Below are positions 4,647 to 57,295 of a DNA stretch of 64,000 bases, in pieces. Under the pieces are notes generated by a model that was given only the letters and a program-made list of their open reading frames with translations, searched no databases and had not been told where the DNA came from. How positions within the stretch are numbered: position 1 is the stretch's first letter; every line of letters begins with the position of its first letter. Both the position numbers and the translations under genes were made by a program. The DNA lies in NCBI GenBank assembly GCA_041662745.1, contig JBAZRV010000002.1, positions 21,785 to 85,784 on the forward strand, written 5' to 3'. The DNA comes from Patescibacteria group bacterium. Lineage in GTDB: Bacteria; Patescibacteriota; Patescibacteriia; 2-01-FULL-39-33.

Positions 4647-7558
<2,912 letters not shown>

Positions 7559-29923: not shown

Positions 29924-31999
<2,076 letters not shown>

Positions 32000-32017
32000 T
32001 TATCTAAATTTAGATAA
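32000..32017. promoter_or_regulatory. Perfect 18-nt palindrome TTATCTAAATTTAGATAA, 4 nt upstream of the gyrB start codon
   Basis: Seen directly; related words TTATCTAAATTTA recur at 15118, 39712 and 63667. Confidence 0.3.
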
Positions 32018-32328
32018 GAATAACACCAATCACTGTCGAAAAATTTCGACAGCAGGTGACTGAAATTAATGTTTTCCACACCTTTAATTTTAGCATTTTT
32101 TAGGTATTTCTACAAGAGAAAAAATCATGATTTATCGTTCAATTTTAGGTATTATATTAGCCAATAAAACGGTTGATTTTGTGTTGTGGATAAGTTATTT
32201 TTTAGGTTGACAAAATTTCTCCAATGTACTATCATTATTTGATAATCCCAAAGGTTGGGATTTCACTCGGTCCGGAGTGGCATAACGCCAAAGGACAAAG
32301 TACATCAACAAAAAGAAAGGAAATGCCC

Positions 32329-33093
32329 ATGCCTAAGAAAGCAGGGAATGTCCAAGACAGCGGTTTAACCGCGAAACAGCAACGTGAGCTGTTCACAATG
32401 ATGATTCTCGCAACTCCTACGGATATACCGCGGTACATTTATGACCAATGGACGGCTAACCCCCTCGGTCTTAATCGCGAAGTGCGGCGGATTTTGATGT
32501 CGCCAACTAACAAACCAATGGTTTTGCTCGCCCTTCAGCACGACACCGACACCCTCGCCCAACTGGAGAGTTGGGAACGGCACTACCATGATGAATATGG
32601 CATGGCCGTTGATTTTTCCGGCATATTTATTCCGCTTCGTCGCGACGGCTTTAAGCGTTTGATTGTCGTGCCGCAAGGCATGACGTGCAACTTCGCTTTC
32701 GCCAAGAATGCCAGTATGTTTCCGTGTTTGGCATGGGCGAGCGATTTAGATACTGCTGTCAAAGGCCGTAACGATCGCGAGCCGCATCGGCATTATGCCA
32801 TCTGGATTCGCGGTGATGTAGAGCCGGATGAAGTGTTCCTGACGGCCCATCAGGCGCGAGCTTTCGGTTTGAGTTGCACTACTCTTCTGGAGGACTTGTT
32901 AATGGAACTGAAGTATTTCAAGGAAACCGGCGAGCATCTCAATAAGCGGAGGATTACTCGTTGCGACGGTTCGCGCCACTCCGATGGCCTTGTGTCAGGC
33001 GTCAGTTGGTACGGTGTAGATTTCCGGGTCTGCAGGTTTAATCTCAGCGATTATCCGGAAGACAATTTGCGTCCTCGTTCCGTAATTTCTTAA
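32329..33093 (+). CDS. Hypothetical protein, GC-rich; distant paralog of 51562-52350
   Basis: GC jumps to ~55% exactly at this ORF; RBS GAAAGGAA 7 nt upstream; shares GFxxLxxxPxxGxxC and FKxTGE...SDxxxxG patterns with the 51562 protein. Confidence 0.5.
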   Translation: MPKKAGNVQDSGLTAKQQRELFTMMILATPTDIPRYIYDQWTANPLGLNREVRRILMSPTNKPMVLLALQHDTDTLAQLESWERHYHDEYGMAVDFSGIFIPLRRDGFKRLIVVPQGMTCNFAFAKNASMFPCLAWASDLDTAVKGRNDREPHRHYAIWIRGDVEPDEVFLTAHQARAFGLSCTTLLEDLLMELKYFKETGEHLNKRRITRCDGSRHSDGLVSGVSWYGVDFRVCRFNLSDYPEDNLRPRSVIS

Positions 33094-33136
33094 TTTCGTT
33101 CTTTTATAATTCAACCAAGCCGAATAAGGAGATGAA

Positions 33137-33427
33137 ATGAGCACCAGAGATAATTCTGTAAAATGTCCAGTATGTGGCAGAGAGGGAATTAGTAATAACC
33201 TATATGCTGACGAATTCAAGCCGGAGGAATTCAGAACTGAGCTTGTTTGTATTTTTTGTCAGGCCAAGTTCAATCCTTGTGGTGGCTGTCATGGTCAAGG
33301 AATTGGTGATTATCCTTATGAATGCTCAATTTGCGGAGGTAGTGGCGTTGGGAGACGATTGATAACGGATCAATCCGAGATGGTAGCGACGAAACAATCT
33401 AAGATGGTAGCGACGAAACAACCTTAA
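33137..33427 (+). CDS. Small DnaJ-type zinc-finger protein (CxxCxGxG repeats)
   Basis: CPVCGREG...CIFCQ...CGGCHGQG...CSICGGSG; C-terminal tandem repeat SEMVATKQSKMVATKQ. Confidence 0.5.
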   Translation: MSTRDNSVKCPVCGREGISNNLYADEFKPEEFRTELVCIFCQAKFNPCGGCHGQGIGDYPYECSICGGSGVGRRLITDQSEMVATKQSKMVATKQP

Positions 33428-33441
33428 TTCTTGTTCTTTAT

Positions 33442-33474
33442 GCCGTGTCGGCTTTGCCTGACGCGGTTTTTTTG
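33442..33474 (+). terminator. Rho-independent terminator
   Basis: CCGTGTC-GGCTTTGCCT-GACGCGG then TTTTTTT. Confidence 0.65.
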
Positions 33475-33485
33475 TCAAAATAAAA

Positions 33486-33512
33486 CTCGTCCCGATAGAA
33501 TATCGGGACGAG
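33486..33512 (-). terminator. Terminator for the minus-strand membrane-protein gene
   Basis: Perfect 12-bp stem CTCGTCCCGATA/TATCGGGACGAG with a T-tract on the minus strand. Confidence 0.65.
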
Positions 33513-33524
33513 GAATGAGCTTTG

Positions 33525-33929
33525 TTACTGGGGCGATTGAGCCGGCTTTTGCCGTGGCTTGAAATACCCTAAATACCAGGTCAGTAAAAAAAATCCTAAG
33601 AAAATAACCCAGCAGATCGCGCCTTGGATTATGGCTATAACCACAAGATCCCACCAGAATGTGAGAACGCCCGCCAACATGATAATCGGTCCGTACAACA
33701 ATAATATCGCTATCAGCAATAATCGGTTGATCTGATGTTGCGAGGCGGATATTACGACCGAAGCAATGAGGCTAAAGTACCAGCCGAAGAAAGGTATTGT
33801 CAGGATAATCACCCCGGCTGCTATTGCCATAACAATTAAAATAACGTTTACGGAAAATTCCCAGGTTACGCTGCCGGCTTTTTTGATAAAGCTAATAATC
33901 GCCGAGAGCAATTCGTTGATTTTTTTCAT
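33525..33929 (-). CDS. Hypothetical polytopic membrane protein
   Basis: Four predicted TM helices; no motif. Confidence 0.45.
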   Translation of the reverse strand: MKKINELLSAIISFIKKAGSVTWEFSVNVILIVMAIAAGVIILTIPFFGWYFSLIASVVISASQHQINRLLLIAILLLYGPIIMLAGVLTFWWDLVVIAIIQGAICWVIFLGFFLLTWYLGYFKPRQKPAQSPQ

Positions 33930-34158: not shown

Positions 34159-35613
34159 ATGGAACGAACGTTAGTAGCGGAGGTGGCAAAAAAAGCCGGG
34201 CAAGAAGTATTGATCAAGGGTTGGGTGCATACGCGCCGCGATCATGGAAAATTAGTGTTTATTGACGTGCGCGATCGCAGCGGTTTGTTGCAGGTTGTTT
34301 TTATTCCGTCCAATAAAGAGGCGCATGAGTTGGCGCAGAAGTTGCGCAGCGAATACGTCGTGGCCGTTACCGGCCAAATCAACGAACGGCCGGCCAATAT
34401 GGTCAATGACAAGTTGCCGACCGGCGGCGTAGAAATGCTGGCGACCGGTTTGGAGATCATTAATGAAGCCAAAACTCCGCCGTTTGAAATTGATCAGGAT
34501 ACGATTGAAGTCAACGAAGAATTGCGCCTTAAGTACCGCTATCTGGATTTGCGCTCCTTGCGTATGGCCAATAATCTGGCGATGCGTTCCAAGGCCAATA
34601 AGTTTTTTCGCGATTATCTGGAACAGCAAGGATTTTTGGAGATTGAGACTCCGATTTTAACCAAGGGCACGCCAGAAGGCGCCCGTGAATTTTTGGTGCC
34701 GTCGCGCCAGTGGCCGGGCAAGTTTTATGTCTTGCCGCAATCGCCCCAGCAGTTCAAGCAATTATTAATGGTGGCCGGCGCAGAAAAATATTTTCAGATC
34801 GCCAGATGCTTCCGCGATGAAGACACTCGCGGCGACCGCCAAGCCGAATTCACGCAACTGGATATTGAAATGAGTTTTATTGAGCAGGAAGATATTTTCA
34901 ATTTGATTGAGCCGATGATGATTGAATTGGTGGAAAAATTATATCCTAACAAAAAAATCCTAGCCAAGCCGTTTCCGCGCTTGACTTATGCCGAGTGCCT
35001 GGAAAAATACGGCACGGACAAGCCCGACTTGCGTCCCGACAAAAATGACCCCGATCTTCTGGCGTTCATGTGGCTGATTGATCCGCCCATGTTTAAACAC
35101 AGCGAAACAGAAAACAAGTTAGTCGCTTCTCATCATCCGTTTACCATGCCGAATCGCGAAGATATGGAGAAGTATCCCGATGAGCCCAAGAAGTGGCGCG
35201 CCTACGGCTATGATTTGGTATTGAATGGTTTTGAAGTCGCCGGCGGTTCCATCAGGATCCATTTGCGCGATGTCCAACAAAAAGTTTTTGAGCTTTTGGG
35301 CGTGGGAGAAAATGAAATCAAAACCCGTTTCGGCCATATACTGGAAGCTTTTGAATTCGGCGCCCCGCCTCATGGCGGCATCGCTCCGGGCGTGGATCGT
35401 TTGTTAGCTATTTTGCATAACGAACCCAATATCCGCGAAGTGATTGTTTTCCCCAAGACCGGCGACAGCCGGGATTTGATGATGGATGCGCCTAATTACA
35501 CCAGCCTGAAGGCCTTGCGCGAGGCCAATATCCGCATTGCCGACAGCGTGGAAGCGCGCGCCGAAAAAGACGGCGTCAACCTTTACGGCGAACAGACGCA
35601 GACCGCGGATTAA
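34159..35613 (+). CDS. aspS: Aspartate--tRNA ligase (short form, likely non-discriminating)
   Basis: FRDEDTRGDRQAEFTQLDIEMSF motif 2 region; motif 3 GGIAPGVDRL; N-terminal OB fold; 484 aa. Confidence 0.85.
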   Translation: MERTLVAEVAKKAGQEVLIKGWVHTRRDHGKLVFIDVRDRSGLLQVVFIPSNKEAHELAQKLRSEYVVAVTGQINERPANMVNDKLPTGGVEMLATGLEIINEAKTPPFEIDQDTIEVNEELRLKYRYLDLRSLRMANNLAMRSKANKFFRDYLEQQGFLEIETPILTKGTPEGAREFLVPSRQWPGKFYVLPQSPQQFKQLLMVAGAEKYFQIARCFRDEDTRGDRQAEFTQLDIEMSFIEQEDIFNLIEPMMIELVEKLYPNKKILAKPFPRLTYAECLEKYGTDKPDLRPDKNDPDLLAFMWLIDPPMFKHSETENKLVASHHPFTMPNREDMEKYPDEPKKWRAYGYDLVLNGFEVAGGSIRIHLRDVQQKVFELLGVGENEIKTRFGHILEAFEFGAPPHGGIAPGVDRLLAILHNEPNIREVIVFPKTGDSRDLMMDAPNYTSLKALREANIRIADSVEARAEKDGVNLYGEQTQTAD

Positions 35614-46214: not shown

Positions 46215-46287
46215 GCCGTTGTAGCTCAGTTGGTAGAGCGCATCCATGGTAAGGATGAGGTCTCCGGTTCAAGCCCGGACAACGGCT
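46215..46287 (+). tRNA. tRNA-Thr (anticodon GGT)
   Basis: Cloverleaf folded by hand: acceptor GCCGTTG/CAACGGC, D-arm GCTC/GAGC, anticodon loop ATGGTAA, T-arm TCCGG-TTCAAGC-CCGGA; no encoded CCA. Confidence 0.85.
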
Positions 46288-46322: not shown

Positions 46323-46404
46323 GGGTCGGTACCAAAGCGGTCAACTGGGGGAGACTGTAAATCTCTTGGCTCTGCCTTCGGGGGTTCGAATCCCTCCCGG
46401 CCCA
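46323..46404 (+). tRNA. tRNA-Tyr (anticodon GTA), class II with 13-nt variable arm
   Basis: Acceptor GGGTCGG/CCGGCCC, anticodon loop CTGTAAA, variable arm TGGCTCTGCCTTC, T-arm GGGGG-TTCGAAT-CCCTC. Confidence 0.85.
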
Positions 46405-47859: not shown

Positions 47860-48663
47860 ATGTATAATCCTCCAGCCATAAAATCCTCAAAATTTTGGCC
47901 ATTACTTAAAATTGGTTTTAGTCGATTTGTTAAGGATTTTTTCTCGCTCAAATCTTTTTATGTATTGGCTTATAATTTTGTACCGTTTTTAGGAGTGATC
48001 TTAAATTACTACGACTTTTATACTCTGATTTTTGTTTACCTTTTTGAAACTGTCATCTTGGCTTTTTTTGCGATATATAAAACATACTATTTCAAATGGG
48101 AAGAAGTAATGATTTATGCTCCAGTTACAATTATAATTGTCGGCTTTGTGACTTTTTTTGTTTGTTTTGTTGTGGTCGGTTCTATTTCTAGTGGTCAACC
48201 CTTTAAGCTAAGTAGCCTTCTTTTACACTATCCCTTAAAGAGTCCTCTCATAGTTATCGCTAACCTAATCTATTATACCCTTCAAGAGGGCTATTTAATG
48301 ATTAAATCCATGCAGTCTGGCGTTATGAGCAAAGTTAAGAGTTATTTGTCATCAAATTTGATTAAAACTCAAAAGGATTATTTGTTTAATATCGTACTTA
48401 ATCAAATAAATCCAGCCCTGGTCAGAGCGTCTACGCTGTTAGTAGCTGCTTTTTTTACTATGTTTGTTATTTTTCCTGCCGCGATAATATATATTTTTAT
48501 CCGTGCTTATAGCAACAGCGACATTCCTATCGAATATATATTTACTTATTCGGCGATGTTCAGTGTTTGTTTATGGAAGGGGATATTTGATATTTTAACT
48601 CGTATTAATGAAAAATATGATTCTGAAAAACTTAAGGAATTTGAGTTAAAATTAACGTCATAA
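47860..48663 (+). CDS. Hypothetical polytopic membrane protein (AT-rich gene, ~31% GC)
   Basis: 6-7 TM helices; strongly AT-rich relative to flanking genes. Confidence 0.45.
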   Translation: MYNPPAIKSSKFWPLLKIGFSRFVKDFFSLKSFYVLAYNFVPFLGVILNYYDFYTLIFVYLFETVILAFFAIYKTYYFKWEEVMIYAPVTIIIVGFVTFFVCFVVVGSISSGQPFKLSSLLLHYPLKSPLIVIANLIYYTLQEGYLMIKSMQSGVMSKVKSYLSSNLIKTQKDYLFNIVLNQINPALVRASTLLVAAFFTMFVIFPAAIIYIFIRAYSNSDIPIEYIFTYSAMFSVCLWKGIFDILTRINEKYDSEKLKEFELKLTS

Positions 48664-48692
48664 TTTTTTTATTTTAACTTAAAAAATAATTT

Positions 48693-50627
48693 ATGAAAAA
48701 AATTATCATTTTGGCATTCGCGCTGTTCGGTTCCTTGGCTCTTTTTATCGCCGTCTATGCGGATTATTCCCCGTCCCCAGGAGATATCATCAAAGTTGAT
48801 GATAAGACAAAGCCCGCGCTGTATCTGATAGACAGCCAAGGAAATCGCCAATTATACTCTAATGCGGTCACATTCTGGACTTGGCATAGCGGCGATTGGA
48901 ACAATATCAAGGATGTAAATGGCAATAAAGTGACGTTAAAGTTGATTAGCCAAAGCGATTTCGATAATATTCCGAGCACTAAAAATGTAGTTGCGAGAGC
49001 CAATTCGACTTTGCTGAAGTTCGACAATAGCGGCAATATTTATACTGTCGCTGATGATGGCGTAATCAACAAGGTTGCCACTAGTGATGATGATTCCGTA
49101 GCTAAAAAACTCTATGGCGATAATTATAAAAACCAAATAATTGTTATTCAAAATAGCTTTCAAAATGATTACATAGAGGGTCAGCCGTTGACTATTAGTT
49201 CAAGTGTACCCCAGCTAACACAACCGGGACAAGTACTATCTTATATTAGTTGTATTGATTCTGATTATGGATCAGATGGATCAGAGGCTATTTATGATTT
49301 CGGAAAAACTGTACTTAAAAACAGTAATGGAAACGATACTGCATATGAGGATTCTTGTTCTGATATATATACTAATAAAGAATGGCAGTGTAAGCATGAT
49401 GGCACAATACAAGCTGAATCTTTTTATATAGAATGTAGTAATGGTTGTGAAAACGGTCATTGTGTAAAATCATTTGATTCTTCGGTCTGTACTGATTCGG
49501 ATGGTGGACAAAACTACACTGTTCAGGGAGTAATTCGTGGACTCGGTTGGGATAATAAACCCCATGCTAATTTTGACTCTTGCGTAGATGCAACCGTATT
49601 ACGTGAAGGATTTTGCATAGTTCCTACTGGAAACGTAGTAGGCACGCTTTCTTCAAAAGATGTAACTTGCCCCAGTGGTTGTAAAAATGGTGCCTGCGTA
49701 AATCCAGATACTAGTTGTGTTACTGGCCAGCATAAAGAAAATGATAACTGCATATCCGATTTTCAAACCTGCACTATTGCCAATGGTACGGCGCAAAAAA
49801 GTTGGAATGGGACTACTTGGGGGGATTGCACGCTTGCTTCCTGCAATAGTGGTTATGAAAAATATAATAATGAATGTAAAAATAGCAGTTGTGTCGATTC
49901 TGATGGCGGTCAAAATTATTATGTGAAAGGAACTGCTACTATGGGTTGGCAAACTACACCAGATTGGTGCTCAACAGACAGTACTGGCTTAAATTCGGGC
50001 TGGATAGTCGAAGCATGGTGTGACAGTAATGGGATTAGGCAGGATTGGCACTTTTGTCCCGGTGGATGCAGCAACGGTACCTGTCTTCAAGCTACTAGCT
50101 GTTCTTCTGGTCAGCATTTGGAAAATGATCGTTGTGAGGCCAATATAAAATCTTGCAATATGTTGTATGGAACGGGTCAGCAGACATGGGCTAATGGCGC
50201 CTGGAGCGATTGCCAAGCAGTATCTTGTAGTACAAATTATGAAATAAAAAATAATATCTGTGTTGCTGCAACAAAATATTGTAGTCAAACCGATGACGAC
50301 ACCGATACTGGTTTCGTAGTGGGTACTGGAATTCAAACCTGGAATGGCGATTCATGGGGTATGTGTAATGCGACCTCCTGTCTGCCAGGATTTGAATTGA
50401 ATGGAAATAGGTGTTTTGCCTCTTTTCATCCTAATTGTGTTGATTATGATAGTGGTAAAGATTATTTTACTAAGAGTTATACTATGTTTGGTAGCGGTTT
50501 TGGCTATGATTATTGCGATACCAGTCATAATAATGATTTAGGCGAATGGTATTGTTTGAATAATATGTATAATTTGCAATATTATACTTGCCCCAAGGGT
50601 TGCAGTAATGGGGCTTGCATTCAATAA
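48693..50627 (+). CDS. Secreted modular cysteine-rich repeat protein
   Basis: Signal peptide; repeated modules CxDSDGGQNYxVxG, CPxGCxNGxC, and 3 copies of C..GQH.END.C...C...GT.Q.W.G..W..C...C..GYE..NN.C. Confidence 0.55.
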   Translation: MKKIIILAFALFGSLALFIAVYADYSPSPGDIIKVDDKTKPALYLIDSQGNRQLYSNAVTFWTWHSGDWNNIKDVNGNKVTLKLISQSDFDNIPSTKNVVARANSTLLKFDNSGNIYTVADDGVINKVATSDDDSVAKKLYGDNYKNQIIVIQNSFQNDYIEGQPLTISSSVPQLTQPGQVLSYISCIDSDYGSDGSEAIYDFGKTVLKNSNGNDTAYEDSCSDIYTNKEWQCKHDGTIQAESFYIECSNGCENGHCVKSFDSSVCTDSDGGQNYTVQGVIRGLGWDNKPHANFDSCVDATVLREGFCIVPTGNVVGTLSSKDVTCPSGCKNGACVNPDTSCVTGQHKENDNCISDFQTCTIANGTAQKSWNGTTWGDCTLASCNSGYEKYNNECKNSSCVDSDGGQNYYVKGTATMGWQTTPDWCSTDSTGLNSGWIVEAWCDSNGIRQDWHFCPGGCSNGTCLQATSCSSGQHLENDRCEANIKSCNMLYGTGQQTWANGAWSDCQAVSCSTNYEIKNNICVAATKYCSQTDDDTDTGFVVGTGIQTWNGDSWGMCNATSCLPGFELNGNRCFASFHPNCVDYDSGKDYFTKSYTMFGSGFGYDYCDTSHNNDLGEWYCLNNMYNLQYYTCPKGCSNGACIQ

Positions 50628-50769
50628 CTAATTTATATTGTTTAGCGGTAAGGCAAGATAGTTTCTTTAGTTAAAGTGTAAATTTTTTTTTCGGTTCGGA
50701 ATAACGGGATTCCGCGCCACATTACACTTGACAAGTGGTCAAACAATACCATAAGATATAAACATAAAG

Positions 50770-50812
50770 TCTCCTGCGCCAGTGAAAGCTGAGTGCAGGA
50801 CTTTTGTTTTTT
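50770..50812 (+). terminator. Terminator downstream of the Cys-rich gene
   Basis: TCCTGC...GCAGGA hairpin followed by CTTTTGTTTTTT. Confidence 0.5.
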
Positions 50813-50823
50813 AATACGAAATA

Positions 50824-50853
50824 AAAAGACGCCGAGAACTTTCCGTTCTCGGC
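50824..50853 (-). terminator. Terminator for the minus-strand gene 50878-51255
   Basis: GCCGAGAAC-TTTCC-GTTCTCGGC; T-tract on the minus strand. Confidence 0.6.
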
Positions 50854-50877
50854 GTTTCGTACGATTTGAAAGATCAA

Positions 50878-51255
50878 TCACCCCCTCGCTTCTTTTATGA
50901 GTTGTTTGAACCTTTCAGTTTTTTCATCGAATTCAATGTAGAGCTCAACATTGGGAAAACGGCCAAAATCACCTCGTTCAAAATCGTCGGCGCTTTCGCC
51001 TGTCAGGAAAAAGATGAACCTTATTTGCGGATTTCTCTGCACGCATTCCAACAGTTTTTCCCATTGTCGGCGATTTAGTGTTGGATATACAAGTAATACA
51101 TTAAGGTTTAATGGGTCATTGTCATCTCTCTCGTTATTGGCGCCTAGATATGATAACTTATCAATGTACTGGATATGAACTCCCTGTTCGTCGGCTAATT
51201 TGCAGAATACATGCATGCAGCTTGGCATATGTTTATCAAACAACCCGATTCTCAT
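50878..51255 (-). CDS. Hypothetical protein with flavodoxin/receiver-like alternating beta-alpha pattern
   Basis: MRIGLFDK...NVLLVYP...IRFIFFLTG; no canonical REC Asp pocket. Confidence 0.4.
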   Translation of the reverse strand: MRIGLFDKHMPSCMHVFCKLADEQGVHIQYIDKLSYLGANNERDDNDPLNLNVLLVYPTLNRRQWEKLLECVQRNPQIRFIFFLTGESADDFERGDFGRFPNVELYIEFDEKTERFKQLIKEARG

Positions 51256-51355
51256 TGCATTTCTCCTTCTTCGTTGTTATTTTTTAGCTTAATGAAAATG
51301 TAAAAGTGCGAGTAGAGAACAATCTTCGTCGCTATTATATCCTGTTTACCGAATT

Positions 51356-51402
51356 TTGTCAAGAAATTAGATGTTGACAAATTATATTATATGCTGTATG
51401 AT
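51356..51402 (+). promoter_or_regulatory. Promoter (TTGACA-17-TATGAT) overlapped by the inverted repeat TTGTCAA-N11-TTGACAA
   Basis: Seen directly; lies ~160 nt upstream of the GC-rich gene, with a GC-rich hairpin-containing leader in between. Confidence 0.4.
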
Positions 51403-51561
51403 ATATCATTAGTTCATTAACAGGTTGATAAGTTTTATGTCCTGGCTTTCTTTTTGTTTAATTTAAGTTAAATCAGATAAAAAGAAAGCCGGGAAAAGTC
51501 CTGGTTTCTTCCTGGCCGTAGCGGTTGGGAATACTGCCTCACAGAGGCGGAAAGGCAAGTT

Positions 51562-52350
51562 ATGGCAAGACGCAAGGCAAGTGTGGCAGCTCTTTTGGCC
51601 ATGCTGAAAGATCTGAGCCCGGAAGAATTATTGGCCTTGACGGACAATCCCGGCGAAGTGAAGAAGCTTGGTGGCGAGCTTGTCATCAAGGAAATCGTGA
51701 ATACTTTCGCCATTCCCTTGTCCGACAGTGAGATGCTGGAGCGATTCCCGCAGTTCGCCGATCGTCTCATCCCCTGGCGCAAGCTGGCGGCTCTGATGGG
51801 CTACACTGGTCCCGTCGCCTGGCTTATCAAGCAGGGCTTCACACTGAAGAAGCACGCCCCGCTCGTCGGCCCCTGCTACGATAATCTCGGCTACCTTCAG
51901 GGCTGGAATTTCGGCGACAATCCCACCGACGATTGCCTGGTGTTCTGGGTGCCCCGTTTGGCGAAGAATAGCACGGGCAAGACAATCAAAGCGATGGAAA
52001 AGCACCGCGCCGAACTCAAGAAGCGCTATAAGCTTCCTGGCAATCACGCGACCTACTTCGGCTCGATTCAACTCCAGTTTGCTCTCACCCTCGCGCATTT
52101 TAAGCGCACGGGCGAACGCGTACCGCTGAATCTCCGCTATGCCGCGTCGGACACCTTGTATAACGGCTCTCGTCTCATCGCTGGCTCTTTCGAAGACAGC
52201 GGGTTCTACTGCGACCATTGGGCCGAGTTTGGCTTCGGCGGTATCGGTTTCGTGCTTCTGGGAGTGGAGAAGCTCAATCAACAAAACTCCACACCTCAAC
52301 CGGGAGATGAAAAATGCTTGAACGAAAAGCTCGGCAACGAAAGAAATTAG
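51562..52350 (+). CDS. Hypothetical protein, GC-rich (~56% GC); distant paralog of 32329-33093
   Basis: RBS GGAAAGG; shared motifs with the 32329 protein (TxNPxE, GFxL...PxxGxC, HFKRTGE...SDTLYNG); abrupt GC shift. Confidence 0.5.
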   Translation: MARRKASVAALLAMLKDLSPEELLALTDNPGEVKKLGGELVIKEIVNTFAIPLSDSEMLERFPQFADRLIPWRKLAALMGYTGPVAWLIKQGFTLKKHAPLVGPCYDNLGYLQGWNFGDNPTDDCLVFWVPRLAKNSTGKTIKAMEKHRAELKKRYKLPGNHATYFGSIQLQFALTLAHFKRTGERVPLNLRYAASDTLYNGSRLIAGSFEDSGFYCDHWAEFGFGGIGFVLLGVEKLNQQNSTPQPGDEKCLNEKLGNERN

Positions 52351-52619
52351 CACTGGTTATCAGTTTGATGGTAATGGCGCCCTTGATGTTGATTCTGGCA
52401 GTCCTAACCGTTCAAGCGGAGAATCGCCTGGCAAAGCAGTCGCCGACAGTTGATCAGCAGTCTTCGCCGGCAGCTATGGATTCGTCGGCAGACATAGAAC
52501 AGATAAGCAGTCCGGAAGCGAATAATTTGTCGCAAAAATACTTGAGCGGCATGAGAGGCCCGGACAGCTTTTATCTGGAACGGGCGGAAACGGAACAACA
52601 AGAAGCAAAAGAAAAGTAA
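52314..52619 (+). CDS. Small membrane-anchored protein co-transcribed with the GC-rich gene
   Basis: Overlaps the upstream gene by 37 nt; one TM helix then a Ser/Gln-rich tail; terminator follows. Confidence 0.4.
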   Translation: MLERKARQRKKLALVISLMVMAPLMLILAVLTVQAENRLAKQSPTVDQQSSPAAMDSSADIEQISSPEANNLSQKYLSGMRGPDSFYLERAETEQQEAKEK

Positions 52620-56293: not shown

Positions 56294-57295
56294 TGTTTAG
56301 TTAACAGTCAAGGGTGACACTTTGGATTGGATTGATACCATATATTGATTAAACTTTTGTATTGGAGTTAAACCGTTCATGTTCTTGCCCAAATGGTATC
56401 TCTCATGGTTGTACCAATGAACGTATTCTCTCAAACTCTTGAATGGCTTGCCGGGATTTAAATAGTACTCGTCATCTACGCTCCGATTAGCCCTTTCAAC
56501 TTTGCCGTTCCAAGGAGCGCTTCTCTTGGGAATGAATCTCTGATTGATGCCGCTATTTTTAACATGGCTGGCAAAGCCGCCTCGAAACTCTCCGCCATTG
56601 TCAGTCTGCAGTCCCTTGATCTCGAAAGGAAAGAATCTCTTGGCTTTCTTCAACGCGATCATCGATGTCGGCGCATTCCGGCTGTAGCAGTCGACAGCTA
56701 ATTGCATATTCGTGTAAGTATCGATGAATCTGTATTGATAGTTCCAAACTCCCGGTTCTTCCTCTGATGGCACGTATTTTACGTCTAATTGGACGTTTTC
56801 TCCTGGCTGTTTGGCTTTGTAGGGCTCTTTCATGGGCTGATACCAAGGTTGTTTTCTCTGCGGCTTCCTGATCAATTTCTTCTTCTTGTAGTAGCGGTAA
56901 ATTATCGTAGTCGAGATATCGACATTCAATTTCTCTTTGACATGGAGTTTCATCTTCTTCGGCCCATAATTGTATTTGAGCTTGGCATCGTAGATGAAGC
57001 ATCTGACTTGAGAAGTCATCTTCAACTGGGGATGGAGCTCACGGCTGATGTGTCTGTTAGAGCCGTAACCATGATCCTTGTTGTACCATTTGTAGTAGGT
57101 CTTGCGAGAAATGCCGAAGATATTGCAAACCTCTTCAATCGTTTTTCCATACTTTTCGACCTGGCGATACCATCTGAACCTCATTTCCTGAGGAGCGCTA
57201 AGCGGTGATCCTGGCATATATTTGGCTGATTTTAGGTGAGTTAACAGTGTCACCCTTATCCTACCAGAATGTCACCCTTTAATGTTAACTGTACA
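56294..57295 (-). mobile_element. IS481-family insertion sequence (~1.0 kb) with imperfect terminal IRs and a 5-6 bp target-site duplication ACTTT(T)
   Basis: IR-L TGTTTAGTTAACAGTCAAGGGTGAC vs rc of IR-R TGTACAGTTAACATTAAAGGGTGAC; flanking ACTTTT at 56289-56294 and 57296-57301. Confidence 0.7.
56297..57217 (-). CDS. IS481-family DDE transposase
   Basis: N-terminal HTH; integrase core with VQLDVKYV, LQTDNGGEF, APWNGKVERANRS; stop lies inside IR-L. Confidence 0.75.
   Translation of the reverse strand: MPGSPLSAPQEMRFRWYRQVEKYGKTIEEVCNIFGISRKTYYKWYNKDHGYGSNRHISRELHPQLKMTSQVRCFIYDAKLKYNYGPKKMKLHVKEKLNVDISTTIIYRYYKKKKLIRKPQRKQPWYQPMKEPYKAKQPGENVQLDVKYVPSEEEPGVWNYQYRFIDTYTNMQLAVDCYSRNAPTSMIALKKAKRFFPFEIKGLQTDNGGEFRGGFASHVKNSGINQRFIPKRSAPWNGKVERANRSVDDEYYLNPGKPFKSLREYVHWYNHERYHLGKNMNGLTPIQKFNQYMVSIQSKVSPLTVN

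What the first reader, a model, noticed from the sequence alone, without database searches (positions are those of the whole stretch)
32224..33520. Second GC-rich member of the same unknown family, immediately followed by a DnaJ-type zinc-finger mini-protein with a tandem repeat
ORF 32329-33093 is about 55% GC. It is a distant paralog of the 51562 protein, with shared motifs TxNPxG/E, GFxxLxxxPxxGxxC and FKxTGE...R...SDxxxxG at matching spacing. The upstream in-frame extension offered by the ORF track (32224-32328) has low GC and is probably not coding. Directly downstream is a 96-aa protein with four CxxC pairs, two of them in the DnaJ-type CxxCxGxG form. It ends in a tandem repeat, MVATKQS-KMVATKQ, about 24 nt at DNA level. 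Finding two diverged copies of a GC-anomalous family at separate loci with different partners suggests either a selfish element or a modular accessory system.
Basis: partly seen in the sequence, partly recalled or inferred. Interest (0 to 1): 0.6.

Follow-up and report, generated by a model that had tools for sequence, protein, structure and literature searches.

The report
Orphan DGR variable-protein gene plus ORFan zinc-finger
The "GC-rich unknown protein" belongs to a large Patescibacteria family of hypervariable target proteins of diversity-generating retroelements (DGRs), here without its reverse transcriptase and template repeat, and the zinc-finger mini-gene behind it is an unrelated, lineage-specific insertion.

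Summary
ORF 32329-33093 (family A) and ORF 51562-52350 (family B) are real, conserved genes of a Patescibacteria (CPR) genome. Neither matches Pfam, NCBIfam, PHROGs, PADLOC or any PDB entry.

In other Patescibacteria, homologs of both carry the full signature of a diversity-generating retroelement (DGR). The last ~110-130 nt of the gene (VR) recur a few hundred bp downstream (TR). Mismatches fall almost only on TR adenines, for example 24/24, 21/21 and 20/21. A reverse transcriptase gene follows. A 67%-identical ortholog (L090) still has target-TR-Avd-RT.

In this window both genes lack a TR, an Avd and an RT, across about 82 kb examined. Both sit in conserved synteny, A between gyrB and aspS and B before a DUF6055-like gene and miaA. 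They are therefore orphan DGR targets, either fossil or remote, and not mobile elements.

A and B are only distantly related (hhalign E 9e-4; 0 of 200 shuffles reach the score).

A's GC is 51.2%, not 55%, and is not an outlier in the window. Family-wide, however, these target genes are 10-15 GC points richer than their flanks.

The 96-aa zinc-finger ORF and its 24-nt tandem repeat are confirmed. The ORF is an ORFan, a clean ~330-bp insertion absent from orthologous loci, and not a conserved partner.

The parts
32207..32235 (+). Sigma-70-like promoter (TTGACA-17-TATCAT) of gene A. It contains the spurious upstream ATG at 32224.
   Evidence: Promoter scan gives 11/12 matches. Both hexamers are invariant in five orthologous loci: window, L001, L002, L090, L091.
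32240..32322 (+). Conserved, structured 5' leader of gene A with three short hairpins.
   Evidence: Alignment and RNAalifold on 5 orthologs: 19 pairs, 3 of them with compensatory changes. No Rfam match. Restricted to the close clade.
32329..33093 (+). Gene A, 254 aa (alternative start 32323, MPMPKK). It is a member of a Patescibacteria DGR variable (target) protein family. It has no TM segment, no signal peptide and no Pfam domain.
   Evidence: Family HMM E 7.8e-82. 1849 cluster representatives at E<=1e-3. 31 of 77 family genes with enough downstream sequence have an adenine-biased TR. 7 of 7 downstream ORFs tested are RVT_1. The 67%-identical ortholog P0003 sits in a full target-TR-Avd-RT cassette. 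AF2 model pLDDT 91.4.
32967..33093 (+). VR-equivalent: the 3' end of gene A that corresponds to the variable repeat of active relatives.
   Evidence: Aligns with the L090 VR (6636-6762) and TR (7030-7156). Against that heterologous TR, 18/32 adenine positions are mismatched versus 26/98 non-adenine positions, p=0.0045. Among 5 orthologs, differences at codon positions 1/2/3 are 0.36/0.31/0.37 here versus 0.20/0.15/0.42 in the gene body, and amino-acid identity is 50% versus 74%. One extra codon relative to all orthologs.
33089..33107 (+). Left copy of an imperfect ~19-bp direct repeat (CTTAATTTCGTTCTTTTAT) at the border of the zinc-finger insertion. It includes the stop codon of A.
   Evidence: Read from the sequence and from the alignment with L002/L003, which have a single copy.
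33137..33427 (+). 96-aa ORFan zinc-finger mini-protein with 4 CxxC pairs, two of them CxxCxGxG. Shine-Dalgarno AAGGAG at 33126-33131. It is inserted between the stop codon of A and A's conserved terminator, so it is probably co-transcribed with A.
   Evidence: Only itself among 5.8 billion proteins. No hit in viral contigs or phages. Pfam DnaJ_CXXCXGXG E 2.7e-4, 21.6 bits, below the 32.7-bit cut-off. GC3 is 34%, z = -2.1. Clean ~330-bp insertion versus L002/L003.
33371..33421 (+). 24-nt tandem repeat (2.1 copies) that encodes the C-terminal MVATKQ(S/P) duplication of the zinc-finger ORF.
   Evidence: Tandem Repeats Finder: period 24, 92% matches, score 88.
33422..33440 (+). Right copy of the imperfect direct repeat (CTTAATTCTTGTTCTTTAT). 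It includes the stop codon of the zinc-finger ORF.
33442..33512 (.). Two terminator-like hairpins between the convergent genes: 33442-33467 (+) followed by a T-run, and 33486-33512 (-). They are conserved with L002/L003, where they directly follow gene A.
   Evidence: Terminator scan and alignment.
33525..33929 (-). 134-aa multi-pass membrane protein. It is a syntenic neighbour of gene A only in the closest genomes and is not a family-wide partner.
   Evidence: tblastn and phmmer hits only in L001, L002 and L003.
51562..52350 (+). Gene B, 262 aa. It belongs to a second, distantly related DGR variable-protein family and is also without TR or RT here. Its VR-equivalent is 52153-52260.
   Evidence: Relatives 74-78% identical (L092, L093, L121) have VR/TR pairs with 14/14, 14/15 and 20/21 mismatches at TR adenines, and a downstream RT in L092 and L121 (E ~1e-129 to 1e-130). 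The window VR against the L121 TR shows 17/29 adenine positions mismatched versus 9/79 non-adenine, p=1.7e-6. No second copy in the window. Syntenic in L005 and L006.

Best explanation
Gene A (32329-33093) and gene B (51562-52350) encode variable (target) proteins of Patescibacteria diversity-generating retroelements.

How the system works in active relatives: a reverse transcriptase copies a template repeat (TR) RNA and misincorporates opposite adenines. The resulting cDNA overwrites the homologous variable repeat (VR) at the 3' end of the target gene. This randomises a set of AAC/AAT (Asn) codons that form the ligand-binding face of the C-terminal domain.

In this genome region the TR-(Avd)-RT part is missing for both genes. 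The two genes are vertically inherited, intact and under purifying selection outside the VR. Their VRs still carry the imprint of past adenine mutagenesis. Most likely these VRs are now frozen, so the proteins act as binding proteins of fixed specificity.

The 96-aa zinc-finger ORF is a separate, lineage-specific ~330-bp insertion between gene A's stop codon and its terminator. It is probably co-transcribed with A but is not a conserved functional partner.

Shown here: family membership, the DGR signature in relatives, absence of TR and RT across about 82 kb, synteny, and the insertion.

Inferred: ligand binding by a C-type-lectin-like fold, loss of activity, and co-transcription.
For: FAMILY A IS A DGR TARGET FAMILY
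- 43 of 85 family-A genes in fetched loci have a second copy of their last ~115-130 nt. In 31 of 77 genes with at least 1 kb of downstream sequence, that copy lies within 1.5 kb downstream and at least 80% of mismatches are at its adenines (L042 24/24, L016 21/21, L017 20/20, L069 24/24).
- 7 of 7 ORFs tested just downstream of the TR are RVT_1, E 1e-20 to 1e-24.
- L090 carries P0003, 67% identical to A. Its layout is VR 6636-6762, TR 7030-7156 (15/18 mismatches at A), bAvd, then RVT_1. The TR encodes ...GNVPNVNWNGSKFRVNRYNPDNPND..., with Asn codons at the variable sites.

FAMILY B IS ALSO A DGR TARGET FAMILY
- Eight family-B loci have adenine-biased TRs, and RTs follow the TR in L092, L111 and L121.

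THE WINDOW COPIES CARRY THE IMPRINT BUT LACK THE MACHINERY
- The window VRs are enriched for mismatches at adenines of heterologous TRs: p=0.0045 for A and 1.7e-6 for B.
- The VR is hypervariable at codon positions 1 and 2 among orthologs.
- No TR, RT or Avd is found in the window or in the flanking ~18 kb.
- Synteny is conserved: gyrB-A-aspS in L001 and L002, and B-DUF6055-miaA in L005 and L006.

EVIDENCE FOR A FROZEN STATE
- The ortholog in L091 has lost TR/Avd/RT, and its VR is identical apart from a single G/C residue difference in one of the six full-length cluster members, which come from separate JGI, ENA and Logan contigs.
- The window VR has an extra codon, and its GC-rich 3' element has decayed (GGCGCCCGCG in L090 versus TGCGTCCTCG).

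LITERATURE
- A DGR clade is restricted to CPR, and its targets lack TM segments and recognisable domains (PMC8144416).

ZINC-FINGER ORF
-.
Against: - No cognate TR is available, so adenine-specific mutagenesis of this particular VR is shown only indirectly, against TRs from other genomes. There are many non-adenine mismatches as well (26 for A, 9 for B).
- The C-type-lectin fold is not demonstrated. Foldseek against PDB and BFVD gave no hit with E<=0.001. Only weak matches to C-type lectins appeared: 3whd at E 5.7, and a viral lectin at E 1.6.
- Only about 82 kb of a genome of roughly 1 Mb was inspected, and remote targets do occur in this family. The L026 TR against the L067 VR shows 28/33 mismatches at A. 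'Frozen' is therefore not proven for this genome.
- The identical copies of the window protein in four sources may all derive from one sample.
Confidence: 0.85

Rival explanations
1. Gene A and/or gene B are still active remote targets of a DGR (TR plus RT) located elsewhere in the same genome, outside the 64-kb window.
For: - Remote targeting exists in this family. The L026 TR matches the VR of L067, about 18 kb away on the same contig, with 28/33 mismatches at adenines.
- 42 of 77 family-A genes with at least 1 kb of downstream sequence have no downstream repeat at all, and 4 more have only a weakly adenine-biased or paralog repeat.
- Metagenome-based DGR surveys admit that they miss remote targets (PMC8144416).
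- The window VRs remain intact and in frame.
Against: - No RT or TR is present in about 82 kb around the genes.
- A and B have unrelated VR sequences and would need two different TRs.
- The window VR of A has an extra codon and a decayed GC-rich 3' element relative to the active ortholog.
- The TR-less ortholog in L091 shows an essentially identical VR across six full-length cluster members from separate contigs, with one residue differing in one member.
- All database copies of the window protein are identical.
Confidence: 0.25
2. Gene A and the zinc-finger mini-protein form a functional two-gene module. For example, the DnaJ-like zinc finger could act as a dedicated folding or redox partner of the Cys-containing variable protein.
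For: - The zinc-finger ORF lies 43 nt after A's stop codon, has its own strong Shine-Dalgarno, and sits upstream of A's conserved terminator, so co-transcription is likely.
- One other locus, L011, has an unrelated 87-aa 4xCxxC mini-protein 2.8 kb downstream of a family-A gene.
Against: - It has no homolog anywhere.
- It is absent from the orthologous loci L001, L002, L003, L090 and L091 and from all other family loci.
- Its GC3 of 34% is unlike its neighbours.
- The L011 protein is not detectably similar to it.
Confidence: 0.07
3. One reading: the two GC-rich genes are copies of a selfish or mobile element that has landed at separate loci.
For: - DGRs derive from retroelements.
- Family members occur in several copies per genome (L013/L014; L034/L077/L084; tandem pairs in L024, L044 and L054).
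- Target genes are consistently GC-richer than their flanks.
Against: - Both genes occupy the same syntenic positions in related genomes.
- There are no terminal repeats and no transposase or integrase next to them. The nearest rve gene is at 56297-57253, about 4 kb from B.
- DGR retrohoming is not transposition.
- The neighbouring RT genes are GC-poorer than their flanks, so the GC excess is not a signature of a foreign cassette.
Confidence: 0.03
4. A and B are not homologous. The shared motifs are chance or convergence imposed by the DGR mechanism.
For: - BLASTP E 0.25.
- hhalign with shallow profiles gives probability 0.7%.
- Even with deep profiles the hhalign probability is only 22.5%.
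- The putative catalytic-looking residues of A (C212, S215, R216) are not conserved in B.
Against: - The deep-profile hhalign match is collinear over 157 columns, with score 33.0 and E 9.3e-4. None of 100 column shuffles or 100 block shuffles reached it (maximum 26.0).
- The A2 HMM scores family-A sequences down to p=5e-6.
- Both families carry the VR at the C-terminal end after the FK(E/R)TG(E/K) helix.
- Their cognate RTs are close relatives, E 1e-129 to 1e-140.
Confidence: 0.1

Closest known systems
Variable (target) proteins of the Patescibacteria/CPR-restricted DGR clade ('clade 2' of Roux et al. 2021, PMC8144416; first surveyed by Paul et al. 2017, which I could not read here)
   Same: - Taxon.
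- Layout in relatives: target with C-terminal VR, then TR, then (Avd), then RT.
- Adenine-specific VR/TR mismatches and Asn-codon-rich TRs.
- Small soluble proteins with no TM segment and no recognisable domain, exactly as that paper describes for CPR targets.
   Different: In this window the genes stand alone without TR, Avd or RT, and they are embedded in housekeeping synteny. I could not check whether these two protein families are among the protein clusters catalogued in that paper.
Structurally characterised DGR variable proteins with a C-type-lectin fold: Mtd (Bordetella phage BPP-1), TvpA (Treponema denticola), AvpA (Nanoarchaeota; PMC5006420) and TaqVP (PMC6328139)
   Same: - VR at the C-terminal end of an alpha/beta domain.
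- Variable residues encoded by AAC/AAT codons in the TR.
- Expected ligand-binding role.
   Different: - No sequence match and no significant Foldseek match.
- No FGE-sulfatase or DUF1566 Pfam domain.
- The fold assignment remains unproven.
Remote or multiple DGR targets, where one TR diversifies several paralogous genes (described for Treponema, Legionella and cyanobacteria; stated from my own knowledge plus PMC8144416)
   Same: Family members without a cis TR are common. One clear remote pair was found here, L026/L067.
   Different: For the window genes no matching TR is known. Signs of VR decay point to loss rather than remote service.
DnaJ central cysteine-rich domain (Pfam PF00684, CxxCxGxG x4)
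   Same: The mini-protein has four CxxC pairs, two in the exact CxxCxGxG form, spaced so that they could form two zinc centres.
   Different: - It scores 21.6 bits, below the 32.7-bit gathering threshold.
- It has no J domain and no C-terminal substrate-binding domains.
- It is only 96 aa, an ORFan, and ends in a tandem-repeat tail.

Membership tests
Complete diversity-generating retroelement at this locus | A DGR-type reverse transcriptase gene (RVT_1) near the target gene | tested here: not met
   An HMM built from 8 DGR RTs was run against the six-frame translation of the window with no hit better than E=1. There was no hit in about 18 kb of flanking contig and no RVT_1 in the gene lists there.
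Complete diversity-generating retroelement at this locus | A template repeat: a second, near-identical copy of the 3' end of the target gene | tested here: not met
   blastn with word size 7 of the 3' ends of A and B against the window and the flanks found no second copy.
Complete diversity-generating retroelement at this locus | VR/TR mismatches confined to TR adenines | tested here: inconclusive
   There is no cognate TR. Against heterologous TRs the bias is present but not exclusive: A shows 18/32 adenine versus 26/98 non-adenine positions mismatched (p=0.0045), and B shows 17/29 versus 9/79 (p=1.7e-6).
Complete diversity-generating retroelement at this locus | Accessory variability determinant (Avd) | tested here: not met
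   phmmer with the L090 Avd against the six-frame translation of the window found nothing below E=0.48.
DGR variable (target) protein family A (Patescibacteria) | Significant sequence homology to proteins whose genes carry a verified VR/TR pair and an adjacent RT | tested here: met
   Family HMM E 7.8e-82. 67% identity to P0003, which sits in a full cassette. The family-wide VR/TR/RT signature is shown.
DGR variable (target) protein family A (Patescibacteria) | C-terminal VR that is hypervariable at non-synonymous positions on a conserved scaffold | tested here: met
   Differences at codon positions 1/2/3 are 0.36/0.31/0.37 in the VR versus 0.20/0.15/0.42 in the gene body. Amino-acid identity is 50% versus 74%. 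Scaffold residues C212, G214, S215, R216, V222, W227, V234 and R250 are conserved.
DGR variable (target) protein family A (Patescibacteria) | C-type-lectin fold of the VR-bearing domain | tested here: inconclusive
DGR variable (target) protein family B (gene 51562-52350) | Homology to proteins with a verified VR/TR pair and RT | tested here: met
   L092 (78% identity), L093 and L121 have VR/TR pairs with 14/14, 14/15 and 20/21 mismatches at adenines. RTs follow in L092, L111 and L121.
Same protein superfamily for A and B | Statistically supported profile-profile similarity over most of the length | tested here: met
   hhalign of A3 against A2: 157 collinear columns, E 9.3e-4, score 33.0, versus a maximum of 26.0 in 200 shuffles. 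This is weak: probability 22.5%, and BLASTP is not significant.
DnaJ central cysteine-rich domain (PF00684) | Score at or above the Pfam gathering threshold, with four CxxCxGxG repeats | tested here: not met
   21.6 bits against a 32.7-bit cut-off. Only two of the four CxxC pairs have the full CxxCxGxG form.
Mobile or selfish element | Variable genomic position, terminal repeats, or an associated transposase or integrase | tested here: not met
   Synteny is conserved for both genes. No repeats of the genes occur in the window.

The most novel reading that the evidence does not exclude
After losing their retroelement, DGR variable proteins are kept as ordinary, vertically inherited core genes in Patescibacteria, acting as 'domesticated' binding proteins of fixed specificity. 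The strong, synonymous-site GC enrichment of these genes, set against GC-poor RT genes next to them, would then mark an unrecognised DGR-linked process or constraint. Examples could be selection against A/T in the target transcript or DNA, or cDNA-mediated conversion reaching beyond the VR. On this reading, the slot vacated downstream of the target has become a birthplace for a new zinc-finger gene.
Probability: 0.12. Interest if true: 0.55.

Novelty: new member of a known kind. Interest (0 to 1): 0.3.

Why it matters
It converts two 'hypothetical proteins' with no match in any curated domain or family library searched here into members of a well-understood system, DGR-driven protein hypervariation, which is abundant in CPR bacteria. 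These bacteria are thought to depend on contact with other cells.

It shows that a large share of such target-family genes stand alone without a nearby template or reverse transcriptase. Of 77 family-A genes with enough downstream sequence, 46 have no clearly adenine-biased TR, and 42 have no downstream repeat at all. DGR surveys that start from the RT would miss these genes.

It also gives annotators a practical compositional flag. Target genes are 10-15 GC points above their flanks, mostly at third codon positions, whereas the RT genes are below them.

None of this changes the current picture of DGR biology. The zinc-finger ORFan is a small example of lineage-specific gene gain.

Tried and rejected
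SEARCHES THAT FOUND NOTHING
- Pfam, PHROGs, NCBIfam and PADLOC scans of A, B and their neighbours gave nothing for A or B. Scanning all 141 family-A and 38 family-B alignment members against Pfam also gave nothing meaningful.
- A profile search of PDB sequences returned only a chance hit at E=2.
- Foldseek against PDB and BFVD gave no significant match.
- Rfam found nothing in 32000-33600.
- The zinc-finger ORF had no significant hit in viral contigs or phage records.

TOOLS OR SOURCES THAT WERE UNAVAILABLE OR UNUSABLE
- The first AF2 model, built from a 12-sequence alignment, was too poor to use (pLDDT 55).
- Paul et al. 2017 is not held in the library.
- One contig-walking look-up failed because the start codon did not match the called gene.

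IDEAS CONSIDERED AND DROPPED
- An enzyme reading of family A, prompted by conserved Cys, His, Asp, Glu and Arg residues, including a PD-(D/E)xK-like 'VEADEELK' stretch. It was dropped because the motif lies in predicted coil and helix rather than on a strand, no fold match supports it, and the residues are not shared with family B.
- The membrane protein 33525-33929 as a conserved partner. It occurs only in the three closest genomes.
- Remnants of TR/RT in the spacers downstream of A and B. blastn and tblastx against L090, L092 and L121 found none.
Full report
WHAT IS IN THE WINDOW

The window is a Patescibacteria (CPR) genome segment with 44.6% GC. Database copies of the proteins are named 'Patescibacteria group bacterium', and the nearest relatives include Candidatus Buchananbacteria.

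- Gene A (32329-33093, +, 254 aa) lies between gyrB (29924-31996, -) and aspS (34159-35613, +).
- The 96-aa Cys-rich ORF (33137-33427, +) follows it.
- Two terminator-like hairpins come next.
- A convergent 134-aa membrane protein gene (33525-33929, -) follows.
- Gene B is at 51562-52350.

CHECKING THE OBSERVATION

The upstream extension 32224-32328 is not coding.
- Five orthologous loci share an invariant TTGACA-17-TAT(A/C)AT promoter. In the window it spans 32207-32235 and contains the ATG at 32224.
- A conserved ~90-nt structured leader follows the promoter.
- The orthologs have in-frame stop codons upstream of MP(MP)KK.

The zinc-finger ORF, its two exact CxxCxGxG motifs and the 24-nt tandem repeat (33371-33421, 2.1 copies) are all real.

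The GC claim is wrong for gene A.
- A has 51.2% GC. That is z = +1.4 for GC and +0.6 for GC3 among 64 ORFs, the same as the flanking gyrB and aspS.
- Gene B has 55.3% GC and 68.8% GC3, and is the compositional extreme of the window.

The claimed paralogy is not visible pairwise.
- BLASTP gives E 0.25.
- Shallow profiles give hhalign probability 0.7%.
- After the family-A profile was deepened to 141 sequences, hhalign gave one collinear 157-column alignment covering most of both proteins, with E 9.3e-4 and score 33.0.
- None of 100 column shuffles or 100 block shuffles exceeded 26.0, and reversed profiles scored 14-17.
- HMM-versus-sequence scores are weakly but consistently positive, with a best p of 5e-6.
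- A and B are therefore distant relatives, not recent paralogs.

WHAT THE FAMILIES ARE

Neither protein matches Pfam, PHROGs, NCBIfam, PADLOC or PDB sequences. Family A is nevertheless large: 1849 representatives of 50%-identity clusters at E<=1e-3. It occurs throughout the Patescibacteria, often in several copies per genome.

The key result came from the fetched loci. In many of them a short ORF 200-400 bp downstream of the family-A gene matches only the last ~40 positions of the family HMM. At the DNA level:
- 43 of 85 genes have a second copy of their last ~115-130 nt.
- In 31 of 77 genes with at least 1 kb of downstream sequence, the copy lies within 1.5 kb downstream and at least 80% of the mismatches are at adenines of the downstream copy. 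Examples are L042 24/24, L016 21/21, L017 20/20 and L069 24/24.
- Seven of seven ORFs tested just beyond that copy are reverse transcriptases (RVT_1, E 1e-20 to 1e-24).

This is the defining signature of a diversity-generating retroelement: target gene with a 3' variable repeat (VR), a template repeat (TR), and an RT with adenine-specific mutagenesis.

The closest informative ortholog is P0003 in L090, 67% identical to A. It retains the whole cassette:
- VR at 6636-6762
- a strong hairpin after the VR
- TR at 7030-7156, with 15/18 mismatches at A
- bAvd
- RVT_1

Its TR encodes CGSRYSDGNVPNVNWNGSKFRVNRYNPDNPNDYWRPRSEVS, with Asn AAC/AAT codons at exactly the columns that vary among orthologs.

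Family B behaves the same way.
- L092, L093 and L121 (74-78% identical to B) and five further loci have VR/TR pairs with 14/14, 14/15, 20/21 and 19/20 mismatches at adenines.
- RTs closely related to those of family A follow, at E 1e-129 to 1e-140 against the RT HMM.

This agrees with the literature. [quoted passage not shown]

STATUS OF THE WINDOW COPIES

Neither A nor B has a second copy of its 3' end anywhere in the window.
- Six-frame HMM searches find no RT, no Avd, and no further family member or fragment.
- About 18 kb of the same contig beyond the two window ends adds type IV pilus genes on one side and secE-nusG-rplKA with an ECF sigma factor on the other, but no RT or TR.

Both genes are syntenic in related genomes that also lack TR and RT.
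- gyrB-A-aspS occurs in L001 and L002.
- B, followed by a 722-aa DUF6055-like gene and miaA, occurs in L005 and L006.

They are therefore vertically inherited chromosomal genes, not mobile elements.

The VRs still carry the DGR imprint.
- Against the heterologous L090 TR, A is mismatched at 18/32 adenines versus 26/98 other positions (p=0.0045).
- B against the L121 TR shows 17/29 versus 9/79 (p=1.7e-6).
- Among five orthologs of A, differences at codon positions 1/2/3 are 0.36/0.31/0.37 in the VR versus 0.20/0.15/0.42 in the gene body. Amino-acid identity is 50% versus 74%.

Several points favour a frozen, post-DGR state.
- The ortholog in L091 has the cassette cleanly missing, with the target directly followed by ileS. 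Its VR is identical across the six full-length cluster members from separate JGI, ENA and Logan contigs, apart from one G/C residue difference in one member.
- The window VR has one extra codon relative to every ortholog and to the TR.
- The GC-rich 3' element of the VR has decayed at synonymous sites.

However, a remote target clearly exists in this family. The L026 TR against the L067 VR shows 28/33 mismatches at A. Only about 82 kb of the genome was inspected. I therefore give about 25% to continued remote diversification.

STRUCTURE AND FUNCTION

With the 141-sequence alignment, AlphaFold2 gives a confident model (pLDDT 91.4, pTM 0.80). It has an N-terminal three-helix segment followed by an alpha/beta domain whose C-terminal beta-strands carry the VR.

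The inferred function is a soluble ligand-binding protein whose binding face was randomised by the DGR.

THE ZINC-FINGER ORF

- It has no homolog among 5.8 billion proteins, none in viral contigs or phage records, and none in any fetched locus.
- Alignment with L002/L003 shows that it is a clean ~330-bp insertion between A's stop codon and A's conserved terminator. It is bordered by an imperfect ~19-bp direct repeat that includes each gene's stop codon (33089-33107 and 33422-33440).
- It has a strong Shine-Dalgarno, four CxxC pairs, a sub-threshold DnaJ_CXXCXGXG match (21.6 bits against a 32.7-bit cut-off) and low GC3 (34%).
- It is probably a real, recently acquired or newly born small zinc-binding protein co-transcribed with A. 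It is not a conserved partner of the family.

THE GC SIGNAL

- Family-A genes exceed their flanks by 10.3 GC points on average, in 96% of 79 loci. Family-B genes exceed theirs by 15.0 points, in 22 of 22 loci.
- The excess sits mainly at codon position 3, with GC3 about 0.60 for A and 0.665 for B, against 0.43 in 304 background ORFs.
- The VR is strongly adenine-poor, 11.5% A.
- The adjacent RT genes are 6.4 points poorer than their flanks. The excess is therefore a property of the target gene and not of a foreign cassette.
- I have no tested explanation for this.

VERDICT

The finding resolves into a known kind of system. Two distantly related DGR variable-protein genes are present here as orphan targets, and an unrelated ORFan zinc-finger insertion lies next to one of them. 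I class it as a new member of a known kind, of modest interest.

Noticed in passing
Loci L010-L121 (family-wide); window 32329-33093 and 51562-52350: DGR target genes of both families are consistently GC-richer than their flanks: +10.3 and +15.0 points, mostly at codon position 3. The adjacent DGR reverse-transcriptase genes are GC-poorer than the flanks, by 6.4 points in 29 of 30 loci. The cause is unknown.
   Followed up: partly
window 32207-32322; L001, L002, L090 and L091 upstream of the target gene: A conserved promoter and a ~90-nt 5' leader with three short hairpins and a few compensatory changes lie upstream of gene A in the five closest orthologs. The leader has no Rfam match and is not found upstream of other family members or of gene B.
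   Followed up: partly
window 33089-33107 and 33422-33440: An imperfect ~19-bp direct repeat, which includes the stop codons of gene A and of the zinc-finger ORF, borders the ~330-bp insertion. L002/L003 have a single copy. The insertion mechanism is unknown.
   Followed up: partly
L026 (TR 4970-5086) and L067 (family-A gene), same contig JAQUKX010000003.1: A family-A gene about 18 kb from a DGR has a VR that differs from that DGR's TR at 28 adenines out of 33 mismatches. It looks like a remote target.
   Followed up: partly
L091 6001-6729 versus L090 6001-8206: Two orthologous loci both end in ileS. One has target-TR-Avd-RT and the other has only the target, so the retroelement part has been cleanly lost. 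The VR of the cassette-less one is essentially identical in its six full-length cluster members from separate contigs.
   Followed up: yes
L024, L044 and L054 (family A); L105 (family B): Tandem or nearby paralog pairs of target genes. Their 3' ends are 78-84% identical in the family-A pairs and ~71% in L105, with mismatches spread over all four bases, so these are gene duplicates and not VR/TR pairs.
   Followed up: no
L011 7500-7763: Another small (87 aa) protein with four CxxC pairs and DnaJ-like CxxCxGxG motifs lies 2.8 kb downstream of a family-A gene. It is not detectably similar to the window's zinc-finger ORF.
   Followed up: partly
window 56297-57253 (-): An rve-family integrase/transposase gene (IS element) lies between miaA and the downstream genes. 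It is absent at that position in L005 and L006.
   Followed up: no
window 47860-51500: A low-GC island (31-38% GC) encodes a 267-aa protein and a 644-aa Cys-rich repetitive secreted protein just upstream of gene B. No Pfam domains are on record for either.
   Followed up: no
window 52314-52619 (+): A small ORF (101 aa, or 77 aa as called) with one TM segment overlaps the end of gene B. It is conserved in L005/L094 but not in L006.
   Followed up: no
window 46215-46287 and 46323-46404 (+): Two tRNA genes, the only Rfam matches in the window.
   Followed up: no
L002 9812-11349: A restriction-modification pair (RE_MjaI plus an N6_N4 methyltransferase) is inserted between the DUF333 and HD genes, relative to L001 and the window.
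   Followed up: no
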